Below are positions 9,972-15,288 of a stretch of 64,000 nt of DNA, one piece after another. Source of the stretch: Candidatus Kapaibacterium sp. (GTDB lineage Bacteria > Bacteroidota > Ignavibacteria > Kapaibacteriales > NICIL-2); NCBI GenBank assembly GCA_025055755.1, contig JANWWF010000005.1, positions 5,585 through 69,584 on the forward strand, in the 5' to 3' direction. The notes below the pieces were generated by a model that had not been told where the DNA came from, ran no database searches, and was given only the letters and a program-made list of their open reading frames with translations. The stretch's first letter is position 1. Every line of letters starts with the position of its first letter. A program made the position numbers and the translations under genes.

Positions 9972-10140
9972 GGTTGTTCAACGTCTGTACACAAGTGCTG
10001 TGAAAATAGGAAACGATACATAAATCTGCATTCCCGTCACGCAGTTTTTGTGCATGCATAGGGATAAGGTATCCGACCGCATCTAATTTCGTATCGCAGC
10101 ATCCAATTACTTGTTGTTGAATTATCCTGTTGCTACGCGT

Positions 10141-11106
10141 ATGATTACTTACGACCCTTCGACCGTTCCTCATGCACAGATGCATGGTATTTTGCTGAGC
10201 GGTGTTGCTCCCCGCCCCATTGCATTTGTCGCCTCACGCTCAGCACAGGGAGATATCAACTTAGCACCATTTAGCTTTTTCAATGCATTTGCATCGAAAC
10301 CGCCTGTCGTTGCAATTGGTCCAGCAGTAAGTGTGCGAAGTGGGAAGGTAAAAGATACATGGCGGAACATTCTCGAGACTGGAGAATGCACCATCAGCGT
10401 GGTCACCTATGGGATGCTTCATCAAATGAACCTTGCAGCAGCTGAATACCCCCATGGCACAGACGAATTTGTCAAGGCAGGTCTAACCAAGGTACCTGCT
10501 GAAACAGTTGACGTGCCGTACGTAGGCGAATCACCGTTTGTTATGGAGTGTCGCCTGGTGCAGAATATCGAACTTTTCCGCGAGGAAGGTGGCAATGGGA
10601 ACATCATGCTACTCCGGGTGCATCGTATCCATGTCAAGGAGTCAGTCCTCACGGAGGGAAAAATTGATCCGCGCAAAATGGACTTAGTTGCGCGCATGGG
10701 ATATCACTGGTATGCACGCGTAACTCCTGATGTATGCTTTGAACTTCCCCAGCCTGGTGAAAAACTGGGCATTGGTGTGGACGCATTGCCGGAGCCTATT
10801 CGCACCTCCCCAATACTCACCGGTAACGACTTAGGGCAGCTTGCAAGCGTGGTTACACTGCCGACACCCGACCCCCAATGGCGAGAGCCGCGCTCTCATG
10901 CTGATTCGGTCGAACATGAGCTTATCGCAGGTAACCCCCGTGGTGCTCTCGATGCAGCGATCCGGAACAACTCAGCCTCTGTTTGGATGTTGCACCGCAT
11001 AGCTCATGCTTTCTTGGAAAAGGGCGATACCGTCGGTGCATGGCAAACGCTATATATTGCCCACCCTGAAGTTGTACCGCAACTTCTCACGAACGCAGTC
11101 GTATAA
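10141..11106 (+). CDS. Flavin reductase (DIM6/NTAB) family protein with C-terminal extension
   Basis: VAPRPIAFVAS, NLAPFSFFN, KDTWRNILETGECTIS, VGESPFVMECR, VARMG..WY; start likely ATG 10141. Confidence 0.85.
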   Translation: MITYDPSTVPHAQMHGILLSGVAPRPIAFVASRSAQGDINLAPFSFFNAFASKPPVVAIGPAVSVRSGKVKDTWRNILETGECTISVVTYGMLHQMNLAAAEYPHGTDEFVKAGLTKVPAETVDVPYVGESPFVMECRLVQNIELFREEGGNGNIMLLRVHRIHVKESVLTEGKIDPRKMDLVARMGYHWYARVTPDVCFELPQPGEKLGIGVDALPEPIRTSPILTGNDLGQLASVVTLPTPDPQWREPRSHADSVEHELIAGNPRGALDAAIRNNSASVWMLHRIAHAFLEKGDTVGAWQTLYIAHPEVVPQLLTNAVV

Positions 11107-11136
11107 TTGCCATGCTCTCATCCTCTATGCACAGTC

Positions 11137-11832
11137 ATGGCGCTTTCTCGCACTCAAGTATTTGGCCTGCTCCTGATAGGGGCAGGGGTGCTTCTCCTCC
11201 TTGATGCATTGGGCATCTTCCCCGGGGAAGAATTGCTTTCCCGGTGGTGGCCCCTTGTAGTGATAGCGCTTGGCATTCGACTGGCAGTTCGAAGACCAGA
11301 GAAGTTGACTACAGGACTTGCGGTGATTGCCCTTGGTTGCTTACTTCTTGCCAGCACTATTATTCCAGGTTTCGACCTATGGACAGCAGCAGTTCCCGTA
11401 CTGCTGATTGTCATTGGTATCGGGATTCTTCTTCGCCCCATCCGACCCCAGAAAGAGGGAAATACTCCAAGCGCATTTACTCGCCGATCGCTATCGAGCG
11501 ACGACGAGCTGGTGAACCTGGCTGTTGTATTTGGCAGTTTCGAGCAGATAGTCACCAGCAGCCACTTCCGTGGCGGTACAGTGCAAGCTTATTTTGGAAG
11601 CGCGACACTCGACCTGCGCCCTTCCACGATGGCAACAACAGAGGCATCACTGGAAGTGGATGTAGTGTTTGGCAGCATTCAACTGCTCCTTCCCCCTTCG
11701 TGGAATGTGCTCATTGAGGGCACACCACTATTTGGCAGCATCGAACATAGAGCTACACAAAGTTCCTCCCCAACTGCCTGTATCCTTCGCGTGCAGGCAA
11801 ATGTCGTTTTTGGTAGCATTGAAATTCGGTGA
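11137..11832 (+). CDS. LiaF-like membrane protein (N-terminal 4-TM domain plus DUF2154-like C-terminal domain)
   Basis: GLLLIGAGVLLLL...WWPLVVIALG TM block; C-terminal repeats AVVFGS, AYFGS..LDL, VVFGSI.L..P..WNV, VVFGSIEI. Confidence 0.8.
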   Translation: MALSRTQVFGLLLIGAGVLLLLDALGIFPGEELLSRWWPLVVIALGIRLAVRRPEKLTTGLAVIALGCLLLASTIIPGFDLWTAAVPVLLIVIGIGILLRPIRPQKEGNTPSAFTRRSLSSDDELVNLAVVFGSFEQIVTSSHFRGGTVQAYFGSATLDLRPSTMATTEASLEVDVVFGSIQLLLPPSWNVLIEGTPLFGSIEHRATQSSSPTACILRVQANVVFGSIEIR

Positions 11833-11887
11833 ATCAAATTGGGGGATTTACCGTTTCTGCACAGAGAATACTCGCTCCTGATGCATC

Positions 11888-12463
11888 ATGGCACAAGACT
11901 ACAGTGGGCTTAGCGACAGTGAACTGTATAGCCTGCTTTCCCAACCTGACCACCGGGAGGCTGCATTCGGTGAGCTATACCGGCGCTATAGCCATCGCGT
12001 GTTTGTGTACTGCCGGAAAATTCTTGGCAATTCCCATGATGCCGACGATGCATTCCAGGAGACATTCATCAAATTGCTCGGGAGTGCAAGTCCTAAGCGG
12101 CAAATGACCAATTTCCCGGCATTCCTTCTAACAATCGCGCGGAATACATGTAGAGACATGCTTGCTGTGCGGCATCGAGAACACGTCGAGCTCATCGAGG
12201 AACTCCACGGTGTAGCTTGCGATTTCAGCGTTGAGCAGAATGAAATCAATCAGCTTATCACGATGGCGCTTGATCTCCTCCCCTTCGAGTGGCGCGAAGC
12301 AATCGTTCTCCAGCTTTATGCTAACATGAGCTACAGCGAAATTGCCGAGGCAATGGGCGTTCCGGTCACCACCGTGCGGAATTGGATCTGTCGTGGCAAG
12401 CAACGCTTGCGCGAAATTCTTCAGCCTTACTTTGACGAACGAGATGTTCGATCGGCGCAATAA
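11888..12463 (+). CDS. ECF sigma-70 factor
   Basis: AFGELYRRY, DADDAFQETFIK (region 2), WREAIVL...MSYSEIAEAMGVPVTTVRNWICRGKQRL (region 4). Confidence 0.92.
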   Translation: MAQDYSGLSDSELYSLLSQPDHREAAFGELYRRYSHRVFVYCRKILGNSHDADDAFQETFIKLLGSASPKRQMTNFPAFLLTIARNTCRDMLAVRHREHVELIEELHGVACDFSVEQNEINQLITMALDLLPFEWREAIVLQLYANMSYSEIAEAMGVPVTTVRNWICRGKQRLREILQPYFDERDVRSAQ

Positions 12464-12468
12464 CTGCA

Positions 12469-13680
12469 ATGGAACAGTGGTCGTACCAAATGATGATTGA
12501 CCTCTATCTCGACGGTGAGCTGCCCGTCGAGCAACGGAGTATGCTCTTTAGTGCCTTAGCCACAAATGAAGAGCTCCAGCAGCACTTCCATCAGGCTCTC
12601 CTGATACGACTTGCTGCGCTGCAGGAAGCCCAGCATCTTATGCCATCTCCTGCTCTGACTGCTCGCATTATGAGTGCAGCACAGATGCCGCCACCACCAA
12701 CCTCTTTCTTTGCACGAGTATGGCGCTCGAGAATTACTCGCAGCATCCTTGCCGTTGGCAGCGCATTTGTATGCGGGATCGCGGTGGGTAGTTTTCTTGC
12801 TCCAACAACAACGACACTTTCCCCTTCGCGCAATGCTCAGTTTACTACAGCCCAACTGAGCAAAGATGCCGCGGCGATTACTGATGTTCAGACCTCGGAG
12901 ACGACCGCAAGCGCTATTTTCAGAGAGAACCCTCGCTTTCCTGTTCCAATGCCAACTTCTTCACCTTCGCCAAGTGTGCACAGCAGCGACAATAATCCTC
13001 CCGAAAGTGTAGCAATCGTACCTGTTGCCACCCGCACAAGTACTGTTGCTCTGGTTCACACGGACACTCCCACCTTGCCCACTTTCCATGGAGTGCCTCG
13101 CATACCCTCTGTTTCTTCTATGCCGCTGACGATAGCTCTTCCTCCTGTGCCTTGGTCTCAAAAGGAATCAGAGCTAATTATCAGCATGCGGCGGACAAGC
13201 ATGCTAGCATTCCGTCAGCCTCATCTGCTTGCTCCCGTTAGCTCCTCACCAGTAGCAAACACTATCGTCGCTGTTGAATTCCGTGAGCGGAATGTGAGCC
13301 TATGTGCTCAAGCTGGCTATGAACAATTTCCACTCCTTACGGCAAAAGAGGAAGGATCAATGCAGGGCGCGGCTACGCCTATCAGACAATACTTTCCACA
13401 ACAGCAAATGTGGTGGATTGGTGCAGGCTTGCGAGCATATCTGCCAGTGGATACTGCTGAATCACTGCCACTTCCTTTTCGGCCCTTTGCAGGAATAATG
13501 CTTGGCACCAGTGCATCGGGGGTGCTTGGACGGGGCGAAGTAGGGATACTGTGGGAAGTACTTCCATCGGTGGGGATTCAATTTCTGCTGGAAGGAATGG
13601 TGCATTCGCATACAGTCGGTTCTCAGTGGGAACACGCAGAAAAGCTAAGCGGAAGTATTGGTGTTGCTTTCCGTTTCTAA
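12469..13680 (+). CDS. Putative anti-sigma factor: N-terminal ASD-like domain, single TM, long P/S/T linker, C-terminal beta-barrel-like domain
   Basis: YLDGELPVEQR N-terminus; hydrophobic ILAVGSAFVCGIAVGSFLA; amphipathic strands ending GSIGVAFRF; 5 nt after ECF stop. Confidence 0.7.
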   Translation: MEQWSYQMMIDLYLDGELPVEQRSMLFSALATNEELQQHFHQALLIRLAALQEAQHLMPSPALTARIMSAAQMPPPPTSFFARVWRSRITRSILAVGSAFVCGIAVGSFLAPTTTTLSPSRNAQFTTAQLSKDAAAITDVQTSETTASAIFRENPRFPVPMPTSSPSPSVHSSDNNPPESVAIVPVATRTSTVALVHTDTPTLPTFHGVPRIPSVSSMPLTIALPPVPWSQKESELIISMRRTSMLAFRQPHLLAPVSSSPVANTIVAVEFRERNVSLCAQAGYEQFPLLTAKEEGSMQGAATPIRQYFPQQQMWWIGAGLRAYLPVDTAESLPLPFRPFAGIMLGTSASGVLGRGEVGILWEVLPSVGIQFLLEGMVHSHTVGSQWEHAEKLSGSIGVAFRF

Positions 13681-15288
13681 GGAACTCGCTGGATGATGTG
13701 GCTCCACAAAGATCACTGATTCTCGGAGCATCTCGACCGCTCCGACACGCCGTCCTTTCGGCTTGCGAAGGTACTTCCGCTGGGTCCATGATACTGGCAC
13801 ATAGCGTGCATTCCGCGCTCCTGAGTAGTAGGCAACAATCGCTGCTGCCGATTCAATGACAGGCATTGGAGGAAGCGTCCGTCCCGCTACGGGTATGAGC
13901 CCGTGTGCTCCCTCCACACCGCGTGCATGGAGCCACACGTCGTGAGGGCGAGCCACTCGATAGGTGAGTTCTTCGTTGCTACGAGCATCTTTGCCAACCA
14001 GGAGCACGTAGCCCATCGGTAGAGGAAATTCCCGGAATCGCGTGCTTCCTTGTACTGGCAGTTTTATTGCTGGATGTTGCCTCGGAGGATAAAGGCGTTG
14101 CTCGAGAGTGTTGGCTTCACCGCTGGATTGTATGGTGTCAAGCTGTGCAAGAGCATCGCGCAATATCTGCTCTCGCTCTGAAAGCTGCACCAGTCGATCT
14201 TGTGCAATCTTGGCGGCTCGCCGAATCTTGCGAGCACGAGCAAAGAACTTTTCGGCATTCTCCAACACTGTCAAAGATGGATCAAGGGTGATATCCACGG
14301 AATGCCCATCCCAACCCTGACAGCTAAGTGTGTGGATACCGCGCTGATGTCGCTGGGGATGTGCAATAAGGAGATGCCCCCATTGCTCAAGCTGGTCAGC
14401 CTCAGGTGCAGAAACAACATCCTGCTGCAGAGCAGCTTTTGCGTGCTCTATTCGCTGTAACTCTCCCTGGATGCGACGATGAAGCTGCGTCCTTGCACGC
14501 TCGAGCGCCCACGCGCGATAGCGCAAGCGAACGATATGGTACACTCCTTGTTCCACACTCTTGAGATGTTCCACTTCCCCTTCTGCCTCAAAAACGGGAG
14601 CAAGGAGAAAGAGCTGCTCTGTACCTTGCCGAACAAGAACAGGGGTTGGCTGCTCAATTAGGTGTTGGCGATACTGATAAGCTTGGTCAATAATACGCTG
14701 CCGTTCTGCCAGGGCGATGCTGCCCCACAAGAGAGAAGGCTCCAGCCCCTGCTGATGACAAAAGTGTACCGCATAGGGGGAAGCAAGCAGTATTCTGCTA
14801 CGGCTAAGCACCTGGCTAAGCGGAGAGTCGTCGCGATAGTCAAGGGGATCAGGAAGGGGTGATTCAGGTAGCTCCCACCGCTGAGGTACTGATTCTGTCC
14901 CAACCGCTGTCACAACTTGGCAGGAGAAAGGGTCTCGTACAACGCAGAAAAGCCGAGTTCCTGGAATTGCGATAAAGACAAGCTCCACATCCCCAAGAGC
15001 AAAAGTGACAATACGATTTGCAGGAGCAATGCGAATGCCCCGCACTGGCATGTACTGAAGTTGTGGCAATATGGGCTCACGAATGCGCGGGGGATTGGCA
15101 CGGTGAATGTAGATTCCTCGAATCGGCTGTGCTGGCTGGAGCACTACAACACGTCTTCCGGCGGCACTTTCGATAGCAACACAGAGCTCGCCCTCTTGTG
15201 TGCGGTAGCATTGCTCGATAGCTGCACCGTCAAGGTGGCGATGCAGCTCCTCAATCAAAGCAGCAAGGGTCAGCCAATGGTTAATCAT
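13645..15288 (-). CDS. rqcH: NFACT/RqcH (FbpA-like) ribosome quality-control protein
   Basis: ITLDPSLTVLENAEKFFARARK coiled coil; NFACT-R domain VGKDARSNEELT...DVWLHARGVEGAH...AAYYS...TQRKYLRKPKG. Confidence 0.85.
   Translation of the reverse strand: MINHWLTLAALIEELHRHLDGAAIEQCYRTQEGELCVAIESAAGRRVVVLQPAQPIRGIYIHRANPPRIREPILPQLQYMPVRGIRIAPANRIVTFALGDVELVFIAIPGTRLFCVVRDPFSCQVVTAVGTESVPQRWELPESPLPDPLDYRDDSPLSQVLSRSRILLASPYAVHFCHQQGLEPSLLWGSIALAERQRIIDQAYQYRQHLIEQPTPVLVRQGTEQLFLLAPVFEAEGEVEHLKSVEQGVYHIVRLRYRAWALERARTQLHRRIQGELQRIEHAKAALQQDVVSAPEADQLEQWGHLLIAHPQRHQRGIHTLSCQGWDGHSVDITLDPSLTVLENAEKFFARARKIRRAAKIAQDRLVQLSEREQILRDALAQLDTIQSSGEANTLEQRLYPPRQHPAIKLPVQGSTRFREFPLPMGYVLLVGKDARSNEELTYRVARPHDVWLHARGVEGAHGLIPVAGRTLPPMPVIESAAAIVAYYSGARNARYVPVSWTQRKYLRKPKGRRVGAVEMLRESVIFVEPHHPASSLETESNTNTSA

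What the first reader, a model, noticed from the sequence alone, without database searches (positions are those of the whole stretch)
11137..13680. LiaF-like protein, ECF sigma and an anti-sigma that may span the envelope into an outer-membrane barrel
Seen: the gene 5 nt after the ECF sigma has an anti-sigma-like N-terminus (YLDGELPVEQR) without the HxxxCxxC zinc motif. One TM follows, then ~120 aa of Pro/Ser/Thr-rich linker and ~170 aa of amphipathic beta-strands ending in Phe (GSIGVAFRF), as for BAM substrates. Upstream is a LiaF/DUF2154-type membrane protein. Established: LiaF-type proteins usually modulate LiaRS two-component systems; Bacteroides EcfO/Reo is a precedent for an ECF paired with a barrel-containing anti-sigma. 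Inference: a single-polypeptide trans-envelope sensor of outer-membrane assembly or IM-OM spacing, here combined with a LiaF-like accessory, a pairing I do not know to be described.
Basis: partly seen in the sequence, partly recalled or inferred. Interest (0 to 1): 0.65.

Follow-up and report, generated by a model that had tools for sequence, protein, structure and literature searches.

The report
Two-membrane anti-sigma factor, Dma-like, Kapabacteria
This hot-spring bacterium has a stress sigma factor whose inhibitor is one protein predicted to reach from the cytoplasm to an outer-membrane barrel; that design was published for gut Bacteroides in 2024, so this is a divergent new version, and the LiaF-like gene next to it is only a genus-specific neighbour.

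Summary
Three co-directional genes encode a LiaF-like membrane protein, an ECF sigma factor and, 5 nt later, a 403-aa anti-sigma factor.

AlphaFold2 gives the anti-sigma factor four parts:
- a four-helix anti-sigma head without zinc ligands;
- one transmembrane helix;
- a disordered Pro/Ser/Thr/Ala-rich tether of about 123 aa;
- a confident 8-stranded barrel whose best PDB matches are OmpA, NspA, OmpX and Ail.

The protein ends in a BAM-type beta-signal (SIGVAFRF).

This architecture is already published as the Dma family of Bacteroidota (PMC10927553). Kapabacteria now sit inside that phylum. This protein shows no detectable sequence similarity to Bacteroidia Dma-type proteins. Its barrel misses Pfam OMP_b-brl_2, and its sigma factor falls in a separate clade.

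Outside this genus the LiaF orthologue keeps its flavin-reductase neighbour but never a sigma gene. The two paralogous sigma/anti-sigma pairs in this genome also lack a LiaF gene.

New here is a conserved ECF-type promoter (TGAATCA-N15-CGTTTCTGC) that begins at the LiaF stop codon. Its only other conserved copy per genome lies upstream of an operon for an outer-membrane barrel and a BamE-domain lipoprotein, a candidate regulon.

Verdict: a new variant of a known kind, of moderate interest.

The parts
10111..11106 (+). Flavin-reductase-like gene (331 aa). It is the conserved upstream partner of the LiaF-like gene. Context only, not part of the sigma module.
   Evidence: Pfam Flavin_Reduct 1.2e-20. 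It lies next to and co-directional with the LiaF orthologue in 5 of 5 loci of other genera of the same family, and in all genus loci that extend that far.
11137..11832 (+). LiaF-like membrane protein (231 aa from ATG 11137; 241 aa from TTG 11107). It has a LiaI-LiaF-type 4-TM region and a weak Toastrack/DUF2154-like C-terminus. It is a genus-specific neighbour, not a conserved partner of the sigma module.
   Evidence: Pfam LiaF-TM 1.8e-16; LiaF-like_C 24.6 bits, below the 29-bit cut-off. NCBIfam LiaF_C_term 21 bits against a cut-off of 57. Adjacency survey.
11830..11860 (+). Predicted ECF-type autoregulatory promoter TGAATCA-N15-CGTTTCTGC. The -35 element begins with the LiaF stop codon TGA, and the -10 element ends 27 nt before the sigma ATG.
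   Evidence: Conserved in the alignment of genus loci. Pattern search in 8 genus genomes gave 15 hits, against 0 for the reversed control pattern; every genome has a copy directly upstream of the sigma gene.
11888..12463 (+). ECF (group 4) sigma-70 factor, 191 aa.
   Evidence: Pfam Sigma70_r2 3.8e-15 and Sigma70_r4_2 1.1e-13. TIGR02937 sigma70-ECF 92.9 bits, above the 42.9-bit cut-off. It forms a supported clade (99/94) with the sigmas of other Kapabacterial barrel-tailed anti-sigma genes.
12469..12693 (+). Anti-sigma domain (residues 1-75): four helices, class-I ASD-like, without the HxxxCxxC zinc ligands.
   Evidence: NCBIfam NF052375 anti-sigma factor 3.3e-7. AF2 helices 6-14, 20-32, 34-57 and 61-71 with pLDDT 83-95. 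Ten of 13 Foldseek hits are RsiW, MucA or RslA cytoplasmic domains, but the scores are weak (best E 0.15, prob 0.93). phmmer 5.9e-7 to a zinc-type anti-sigma in L047.
12730..12798 (+). Single transmembrane helix (residues about 88-110), the inner-membrane anchor.
   Evidence: Highest Kyte-Doolittle window at residues 93-111, score 2.19. AF2 helix 81-110.
12799..13167 (+). Disordered periplasmic tether (residues 111-233), 54% Pro/Ser/Thr/Ala. Its length is conserved but its sequence is not.
   Evidence: pLDDT below 50 over residues 105-231. Length is 112-123 aa in all 14 orthologues. Column identity is 0.30, against 0.74 for the ASD and 0.72 for the barrel.
13168..13680 (+). C-terminal 8-stranded beta-barrel (residues 234-403, plus the stop codon) with the terminal beta-signal S-I-G-V-A-F-R-F.
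   Evidence: AF2 gives 8 strands with pLDDT about 80-93. Foldseek PDB top hits are OmpA-TM, NspA, OmpX, Ail, OprF-N, OmpW and designed transmembrane barrels, E 4e-6 to 1e-3, TM-score on target up to 0.69. S396, G398, R402 and F403 are invariant in 14 orthologues.
13645..15288 (-). Convergent NFACT/RqcH-like gene whose 3' end overlaps the anti-sigma 3' end by 36 nt. It marks the downstream end of the module.
   Evidence: Pfam NFACT_N 5.4e-26 and NFACT-R_1 9.5e-9. The convergent arrangement is kept in every genus locus.

Best explanation
The locus encodes a two-gene ECF sigma/anti-sigma module. Its anti-sigma factor has the dual-membrane-spanning (Dma-like) design.

Predicted anatomy:
- A cytoplasmic four-helix anti-sigma domain holds the sigma factor.
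- One helix anchors the protein in the inner membrane.
- A disordered Pro/Ser/Thr/Ala-rich tether of about 120 residues crosses the periplasm.
- The last 170 residues form an 8-stranded barrel that BAM inserts into the outer membrane through a terminal beta-signal.

Inferred mechanism, by analogy with Dma1 and RseA:
1. While the barrel is correctly assembled and the tether intact, the sigma factor stays sequestered at the inner membrane.
2. Failure of barrel assembly, or damage or strain to the envelope, exposes the tether to periplasmic proteolysis.
3. An RseP-type site-2 protease (present in the genome) then cuts within the membrane and frees the sigma factor.
4. The free sigma factor transcribes from TGAATCA-N15-CGTTTCTGC promoters.

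Two such promoters are predicted: one in front of the sigma gene's own operon (positive feedback) and one upstream of an operon encoding an outer-membrane barrel protein, a BamE-domain lipoprotein, a second lipoprotein and a PIG-L-type deacetylase. The output would therefore be outer-membrane maintenance.

The LiaF-like gene upstream belongs to a different conserved unit (flavin reductase plus LiaF-like). It came to lie next to the module only in this genus.

Shown by computation: gene order, domain predictions, fold matches, motif conservation and the synteny survey. Inferred: sigma binding, the two-membrane location, the proteolytic trigger and the regulon.
For: Anti-sigma architecture:
- The gene pair has a 5-nt gap, with ECF domains in the sigma and an anti-sigma NCBIfam hit of 3.3e-7.
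- AF2 on 14 orthologues gives a confident helical head, a TM helix, a disordered 105-231 segment and 8 strands at pLDDT 80-93.
- All 37 Foldseek PDB hits at E<=1e-3 are transmembrane beta-barrels; all but a few designed ones are natural outer-membrane proteins, led by OmpA, NspA, OmpX and Ail.
- A model of the N-terminus alone hits RsiW, MucA and RslA.
- Tether length is held at 112-123 aa while its sequence drifts.
- The beta-signal residues are invariant.
- The genome has four Omp85/BamA-type genes and two M50/RseP-type genes.

Precedent: Dma1 has the same four-part architecture. Full-length Dma1 was found in total membranes and only C-terminal fragments in outer-membrane vesicles (PMC10927553; PMC13088901).

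Promoter and regulon:
- The motif is conserved at the LiaF stop codon in the genus.
- There are about 2 hits per genome, against 0 for the reversed control.
- The second site is orthologous in 6 genomes, upstream of the barrel/BamE-like operon.
- Four of 4 core codons at that site have invariant third positions, against a 24% baseline (p about 0.003).

The family is widespread and paralogous in the order: 36 of 41 genomes have a match, and this genome has 3 pairs.
Against: - Everything structural is prediction. No localisation, binding or expression data exist for this uncultured lineage, and no RNA runs were found.
- Foldseek support for the anti-sigma fold is weak (best E 0.15).
- A sigma/ASD complex could not be modelled with the tools available.
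- The barrel is not recognised by any Pfam outer-membrane-protein model.
- The second promoter site lies inside the coding sequence of the Leu/Phe-tRNA-protein transferase gene. It is about 215-290 nt upstream of the barrel gene, so part of its conservation could be due to coding constraint, and the leader would be long.
- The trigger for sigma release is unknown even for Bacteroides Dma1.
Confidence: 0.75

Rival explanations
1. The LiaF-like protein is a true third component. It would modulate the anti-sigma factor at the inner membrane, making this a three-part LiaF/ECF/trans-envelope sensor.
For: The genes are on the same strand, only 55 nt apart, with no convincing terminator between them. 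The order LiaF-sigma-anti-sigma is kept in every genus locus that covers it. Toastrack/LiaI-LiaF-TM proteins are proposed membrane-proximal signalling scaffolds and sometimes have operonic sigma factors (PMC11237479).
Against: Outside the genus, 8 of 8 LiaF orthologue loci have no sigma or anti-sigma gene within about 3.5 kb. Five of them, all from this family, keep the flavin-reductase neighbour (four also keep the SBP5 gene); two loci from another family have an aminotransferase-like neighbour instead. The two paralogous sigma/anti-sigma pairs in this genome lack LiaF, and the genome has only one LiaF-like gene. A conserved ECF-type promoter starts at the LiaF stop codon, so the sigma operon has its own start. 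Synteny within a single genus is weak evidence.
Confidence: 0.12
2. The C-terminal domain is a periplasmic beta-rich sensor domain and is not membrane-inserted. The protein would then be an ordinary single-membrane anti-sigma factor with a long linker.
For: No Pfam outer-membrane-protein model matches the domain. AlphaFold models from shallow alignments (14 sequences) can be over-confident. The barrel carries an unusually polar, invariant His/Glu-rich hairpin, LLEGMVHSH...WEHAEKLS.
Against: All Foldseek hits at E<=1e-3 are transmembrane barrels, nearly all of them natural outer-membrane proteins. The model has eight long amphipathic strands at pLDDT 80-93. The invariant terminal motif S-x-G-x-x-F-x-F, ending in Phe, matches the BAM beta-signal consensus (established knowledge; residues). 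The same four-part design was shown experimentally to place its C-terminus in the outer membrane for Dma1.
Confidence: 0.07
3. The polypeptide is a precursor that is always cleaved after export into an independent outer-membrane protein and a short anti-sigma factor. The fusion would only couple their synthesis and would not act as a physical tether or sensor.
For: Dma1 itself accumulates free 17-20 kDa C-terminal fragments, and full-length protein disappears in stationary phase. The tether sequence is poorly conserved.
Against: Tether length is held within 112-123 aa in 14 orthologues. The fusion is retained in many paralogues across the order, which suggests selection on the connected form. 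Full-length Dma1 is detectable in membranes.
Confidence: 0.06

Closest known systems
Dma family: Dma1 (BT_4721)/Das1 (BT_4720) and Dma2/Das2 of Bacteroides thetaiotaomicron, with Reo/EcfO of B. fragilis (PMC10927553; PMC13088901)
   Same: The four-part architecture is the same: N-terminal sigma-binding region, one TM helix, a long disordered tether and a C-terminal 8-stranded barrel. The gene sits directly after an ECF sigma gene. Several paralogues occur per genome. The phylum is the same in current taxonomy (Kapaibacteriia/Eximiradiia lies within Bacteroidota). Both have an outer-membrane or lipoprotein-related output: NigD1 lipoprotein for Dma1, and here a predicted barrel/BamE-like lipoprotein operon.
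   Different: There is no detectable sequence similarity to four Bacteroidia-type barrel-tailed anti-sigma proteins (hhalign probability 0.4-0.6%). The head here is a 75-aa class-I ASD related to zinc-type anti-sigmas, not the short region of about 45 aa seen in the Bacteroidia proteins. The barrel misses Pfam OMP_b-brl_2, which annotates Dma1. The sigma factor belongs to a separate supported clade, not the clade of sigmas next to PF13568-tailed anti-sigmas. The organism is a thermophilic hot-spring lineage, not a gut bacterium.
RseA/sigma-E and RsiW/sigma-W, MucA/AlgU (classical single-membrane ECF anti-sigma factors)
   Same: A cytoplasmic four-helix ASD precedes one TM helix, and the best structural matches of the N-terminus are RsiW, MucA and RslA. 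Release by regulated proteolysis through an RseP-type protease is likely, and such a protease is present. The promoter is of the -35 GAA(T/A)C / -10 CGT type.
   Different: Those proteins end in a soluble extracytoplasmic domain and sense outer-membrane-protein stress indirectly, through DegS binding OMP C-termini. Here the anti-sigma factor itself carries an outer-membrane barrel with a beta-signal. This protein also lacks the zinc ligands of RsiW and RslA.
LiaF of the LiaFSR system (Bacillus subtilis) and LiaI-LiaF-TM/Toastrack proteins (PMC11237479)
   Same: The upstream gene has the LiaI-LiaF-type 4-TM region (Pfam 1.8e-16) and a weak DUF2154/Toastrack-like C-terminus.
   Different: No LiaS/LiaR-type two-component genes lie nearby. 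Its conserved neighbour is a flavin-reductase-like gene. Its adjacency to the ECF module is limited to one genus.

Membership tests
[quoted passage not shown] | N-terminal cytoplasmic anti-sigma (sigma-binding) region | tested here: met
   NF052375 anti-sigma 3.3e-7. Four-helix head at pLDDT 83-95. Foldseek hits are to RsiW, MucA and RslA, though weak (E>=0.15). The gene starts 5 nt after an ECF sigma gene. Physical binding was not tested.
[quoted passage not shown] | Single alpha-helical transmembrane anchor | tested here: met
   Kyte-Doolittle peak of 2.19 at residues 93-111. AF2 helix 81-110.
[quoted passage not shown] | Long intrinsically disordered tether between the TM helix and the barrel | tested here: met
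   pLDDT below 50 for residues 105-231. 54% P/S/T/A, and 112-123 aa long in 14 orthologues.
[quoted passage not shown] | [quoted passage not shown] | tested here: met
   Eight strands at pLDDT 80-93. OmpA, NspA, OmpX, Ail and OprF are the top Foldseek hits.
[quoted passage not shown] | Barrel recognised as Pfam OMP_b-brl_2 (PF13568), as Dma1 is annotated | tested here: not met
   The anti-sigma protein has no Pfam hit at E<=0.1. The four PF13568 matches in this genome lie elsewhere. Orthologues and paralogues are also negative.
[quoted passage not shown] | Cognate sigma factor of the ECF21 group | tested here: inconclusive
   No named ECF21 reference was available. As a proxy I used sigmas encoded directly upstream of PF13568-tailed anti-sigma genes in four other-class genomes. 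These form their own clade (100/99), separate from the Kapabacterial clade (99/94), and the deep branches are unresolved. Pairwise scores to them are 28-42 bits, against 48-75 bits to other ECFs.
[quoted passage not shown] | Sequence homology to Bacteroidia Dma-type proteins | tested here: not met
   hhalign of A1 or A5 against A3 gives probability 0.4-0.6% and E 0.1-0.16. The profiles are shallow, so very remote homology is not excluded.
[quoted passage not shown] | Full-length protein physically spans the inner and outer membranes | not testable with these tools
   This needs fractionation or tagging, as was done for Dma1.
[quoted passage not shown] | Occurrence within the phylum Bacteroidota | tested here: met
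   Relatives are Candidatus Kapabacteria / 'Chlorobiota bacterium' MAGs. The NCBI taxonomy copy places Kapaibacteriia (=Eximiradiia) in Bacteroidota.
ECF (group 4) sigma-70 factors | Sigma-2 and sigma-4 regions only, about 190 aa | tested here: met
   Sigma70_r2 and r4_2 in 191 aa. TIGR02937 scores above its cut-off.
Zinc-binding anti-sigma factors (ZAS, HxxxCxxC) | HxxxCxxC zinc motif in the ASD | tested here: not met
   The protein has LFSALATNEEL where a related short anti-sigma has LFAHLAACEAC. zf-HC2 gives only sub-threshold hits in orthologues.
LiaF (LiaFSR-type) | LiaI-LiaF 4-TM region plus a DUF2154/Toastrack C-terminal domain | tested here: inconclusive
   The TM region is met (61.2 bits, cut-off 27). 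The C-terminal domain is below cut-off (24.6 against 29 bits in Pfam; 21 against 57 in NCBIfam).
LiaF (LiaFSR-type) | Genomic coupling to a LiaS/LiaR-type two-component system | tested here: not met
   The neighbours are the SBP5 gene, the flavin reductase, the ECF sigma, the anti-sigma, the NFACT gene and a HEAT-repeat protein. There is no kinase or response regulator.

The most novel reading that the evidence does not exclude
The Kapabacterial proteins may be an independent invention, or a very ancient sister, of the Dma design, working as self-reporting BAM substrates. On this reading the anti-sigma factor's own barrel must be folded into the outer membrane to keep the tether protected. Any drop in BAM capacity would then leave unassembled sensor molecules that are degraded. 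That would free a sigma factor which induces a BamE-domain lipoprotein and an outer-membrane (PagL-like) barrel operon. The result would be a one-protein feedback loop measuring outer-membrane assembly. The fixed tether of about 115-123 aa would also report the spacing between the inner and outer membranes.
Probability: 0.2. Interest if true: 0.65.

Novelty: new variant of a known kind. Interest (0 to 1): 0.35.

Why it matters
[quoted passage not shown] So far they have been studied only in gut Bacteroides, where their signal and mode of release remain unknown.

This locus shows the same design built from sequence-unrelated parts: a classical ASD head, a different ECF clade and a barrel that no Pfam model recognises. 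It comes from a deep, thermophilic class of the same phylum, where the genes are annotated only as hypothetical proteins.

The tether length is conserved. The predicted promoter has only two conserved targets per genome: the module itself, and an operon for an outer-membrane barrel and a BamE-like lipoprotein. That gives a small, directly testable regulon pointing to outer-membrane assembly as the controlled process, and it could help work out what Dma-type sensors detect.

The result also removes a false lead: LiaF is not part of the system.

Tried and rejected
- Pfam and NCBIfam gave no family for the barrel, and PF13568 did not hit it in the genome.
- An exhaustive phmmer search with the barrel alone against 1.84 billion representatives returned 15 proteins at E<=0.001. 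Eight were strong matches to the protein itself and its genus-level orthologues. Three weaker ones (E 3e-5 to 3e-4) share the architecture, and the rest were weak partial or repeat-type matches. The search found no new context.
- A sequence-profile search of the PDB with A1 found nothing meaningful.
- The best sigma homologues in 9 genomes of other classes are all paired with short anti-sigma genes or with none recognisable, not with barrel-tailed ones. I therefore dropped them as a route to Dma1 and located Bacteroidia-type barrel-tailed anti-sigmas through PF13568 instead.
- The sigma-70 promoter and terminator consensus scan was no better than shuffled sequence.
- A relaxed motif (TGAATC-N15-17-CGTT) gave 13 genome hits, most inside genes or wrongly oriented. 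Only the strict extended motif was kept.
- I looked for transcript data to test co-transcription. Only DNA runs from hot-spring metagenomes hold the stretch, and no RNA runs do.
- A sigma/ASD complex could not be modelled. The tools fold single chains only, and the two genes are in different frames.
- I considered and rejected a frameshift or gene-fusion artefact, because the frame is intact in all orthologues and paralogues.
Full report
**Observation.** Window 11107/11137..11832, 11888..12463 and 12469..13680 are three co-directional ORFs.
- The first matches Pfam LiaF-TM (1.8e-16) and LiaI-LiaF-like_TM1 (6.7e-16). Its match to LiaF-like_C/DUF2154 (24.6 bits) is below the cut-off.
- The second is a 191-aa ECF sigma factor. 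It has Sigma70_r2 and r4_2, and TIGR02937 scores above its cut-off.
- The third starts 5 nt after the sigma stop and has no Pfam family. It hits NCBIfam NF052375 'anti-sigma factor' at 3.3e-7 over residues 13-157.
- A convergent NFACT/RqcH-like gene (13645..15288, minus strand) overlaps its 3' end.

**Structure.** I aligned 14 orthologue clusters found among 5.8 billion proteins and predicted the structure with AlphaFold2.
- Helices 6-14, 20-32, 34-57 and 61-71 have pLDDT 83-95.
- A helix spans residues 81-110.
- Residues 105-231 have pLDDT below 50.
- Eight strands run from 234 to 402 with pLDDT about 80-93.

Foldseek against the PDB returned 37 hits at E<=1e-3. All are transmembrane beta-barrels, and all but a few designed ones are natural outer-membrane proteins. 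They are led by the OmpA transmembrane domain, NspA, OmpX, Ail, OprF-N and OmpW, with TM-score on target up to 0.69.

A separate model of residues 1-112 matched almost only the cytoplasmic domains of RsiW, MucA and RslA in their sigma complexes. The statistics are weak (best E 0.15, probability 0.93).

The last eight residues, S-I-G-V-A-F-R-F, fit the BAM beta-signal consensus (established knowledge). S396, G398, R402 and F403 are invariant. The genome has four Omp85/BamA-type genes and two M50/RseP-type protease genes.

Tether length is held at 112-123 aa in all orthologues. Its column identity is 0.30, against 0.74 for the head and 0.72 for the barrel.

**What is known.** This architecture is published. 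Pardue et al. [quoted passage not shown]
- The family has an N-terminal sigma-binding region, a TM helix, a long disordered region and an eight-stranded C-terminal barrel.
- Full-length Dma1 was found in total membranes, and only C-terminal fragments in outer-membrane vesicles.
- Its partner is the ECF21 sigma factor Das1, and Reo/EcfO is its B. fragilis orthologue.
- A 2026 paper extends this to Dma2 and restates the four defining parts (PMC13088901).
- Both papers say the family occurs only in Bacteroidota.

The relatives of this window are 'Candidatus Kapabacteria' / 'Chlorobiota bacterium' hot-spring MAGs. The NCBI taxonomy copy now places Kapaibacteriia (=Eximiradiia) inside Bacteroidota. 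The phylum statement therefore still holds.

**Member or look-alike?** No named Dma1 sequence was available.
- Four ORFs of 426-474 aa have a C-terminal PF13568 match and lie directly after an ECF sigma gene.
- Profile-profile comparison of the Kapabacterial family with these four found nothing. This held for the narrow alignment A1 and for the widened A5 with paralogues (hhalign probability 0.4-0.6%).
- Their N-termini are short regions of about 45 aa, unlike the 75-aa classical ASD here.
- The ASD here is instead related to a zinc-type short anti-sigma (phmmer 5.9e-7).
- PF13568 does not hit this barrel or its relatives.
- In a maximum-likelihood tree, the sigmas coupled to Kapabacterial barrel-tailed anti-sigmas form one clade (99/94). 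The sigmas next to PF13568-tailed anti-sigmas form another (100/99), and the deep branches are unresolved.

So it works like a Dma. Membership by descent is not shown, and either ancient divergence or convergence remains possible.

Within the order the family is common and paralogous. Thirty-six of 41 genomes have a match, mostly ORFs of 350-530 aa. This genome has three sigma/anti-sigma pairs, on C92 (this one), C42 and C22. The orthologue group of this particular pair is confined to the genus.

**The LiaF-like gene.** Within the genus, the following block is kept wherever the contig allows:

SBP5 (minus strand) | flavin reductase, LiaF-like, sigma, anti-sigma (plus strand) | NFACT, HEAT protein (minus strand)

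Outside the genus the picture is different.
- LiaF orthologues at 1e-24 to 1e-48 are not adjacent to any anti-sigma hit (one search compared).
- In 8 fetched loci there is no sigma or anti-sigma ORF within about 3.5 kb.
- Five of those loci, all from this family, retain the flavin-reductase gene, and four of these also retain the SBP5 gene. Two loci from another family have an aminotransferase-like neighbour.
- The C42 and C22 paralogue pairs have no LiaF gene, and the genome has only one LiaF-like gene.

**Promoter and candidate regulon.** The 55-nt gap between LiaF and the sigma gene contains TGAATCA-N15-CGTTTCTGC (11830-11860). Its first three bases are the LiaF stop codon, and it is conserved in the genus alignment.

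The pattern TGAATCA-N14-16-CGTTWCTRC has 15 hits in the 8 genus genomes. The reversed control pattern has none.
- One copy per genome is this site.
- The other conserved copy (G000:C114:46989-47019, minus strand) is orthologous in 6 genomes.
- It lies antisense inside the Leu/Phe-tRNA-protein transferase gene, about 215-290 nt upstream of a divergent operon.
- That operon encodes a 290-aa outer-membrane barrel (PagL 22.9 bits, cut-off 23), a BamE-domain lipoprotein (24.8 bits, cut-off 23.2), a second lipoprotein and a PIG-L deacetylase.
- In the transferase gene, the four codons under the -35 and -10 cores have invariant third positions. The baseline for amino-acid-invariant codons is 24%, so p is about 0.003. 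The spacer codons vary, even at the protein level.

This supports an autoregulated sigma operon with its own start, separate from LiaF. It also points to a small regulon concerned with the outer membrane. It remains a prediction, because no RNA data exist.

**Mechanism (inferred).**
1. The ASD sequesters the sigma factor at the inner membrane.
2. The tether crosses the periplasm. About 120 residues is far more than is needed when extended.
3. BAM inserts the barrel into the outer membrane.
4. Loss of barrel assembly, or envelope damage, exposes the tether to proteolysis. RseP-type cleavage then releases the sigma factor.
5. The sigma factor amplifies its own operon and induces the barrel/BamE-like operon.

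An invariant His/Glu-rich hairpin (LLEGMVHSH-x5-WEHAEKLS, strands 7-8) lies at the predicted outer end of the barrel. It could be a ligand or metal site, or simply an internal polar network. This was not resolved.

**Verdict.** The trans-envelope reading is supported by prediction and by a published precedent. The LiaF component is not supported. This is a sequence-divergent variant of the known Dma design in Kapabacteria. Earlier notes of this scan reached the same reading for related genomes; they are leads, not evidence.

Noticed in passing
window 13585-13650 (anti-sigma residues 373-394): There is an invariant, unusually polar motif LLEGMVHSH-x5-WEHAEKLS across strands 7-8 of the barrel in all 14 orthologues. 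By strand alternation E375, H379, H381, E388 and K392 would face the barrel lumen near its predicted outer end. It could be a metal or ligand site or a structural salt-bridge network.
   Followed up: partly
G000:C114:43958-47019 (outside the window): The second conserved copy of the ECF-type promoter motif lies antisense inside the Leu/Phe-tRNA-protein transferase gene. It points at an operon for a PagL-like outer-membrane barrel (290 aa), a BamE-domain lipoprotein (149 aa), another lipoprotein (196 aa) and a PIG-L deacetylase (297 aa).
   Followed up: partly
G000:C22:4092-6553 and G000:C42:26494-28243 (outside the window): Two paralogous ECF sigma / barrel-tailed anti-sigma pairs lie elsewhere in the same genome. 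The C22 pair is followed by an overlapping 240-aa lipoprotein gene. The C42 anti-sigma ends in ...GLPLR rather than Phe.
   Followed up: partly
window 13645-13680: The anti-sigma gene and the convergent NFACT/RqcH-like gene overlap by 36 nt at their 3' ends. An overlap of similar kind is kept in the genus loci (for example L013: 7156-7173).
   Followed up: no
window 10111-11832: The flavin-reductase-like gene (331 aa) matches Pfam only over residues 34-181, so it has a C-terminal extension of about 150 aa with no assigned family. It is the conserved co-directional partner of the LiaF-like gene across the family, a pairing of unknown meaning.
   Followed up: partly
L037 1501-1532 (G003:C2:9533-9564): One genus genome has a third copy of the promoter motif, about 210 nt upstream of a large secreted protein gene. 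This may be a lineage-specific addition to the regulon.
   Followed up: no
L009 90-662 (G010:C48): In another genus of the family, a 190-aa polytopic membrane protein that looks rhomboid-like by eye (no family search was run) lies directly upstream of a related sigma / barrel-tailed anti-sigma pair. An intramembrane protease there would be of interest for anti-sigma processing.
   Followed up: no
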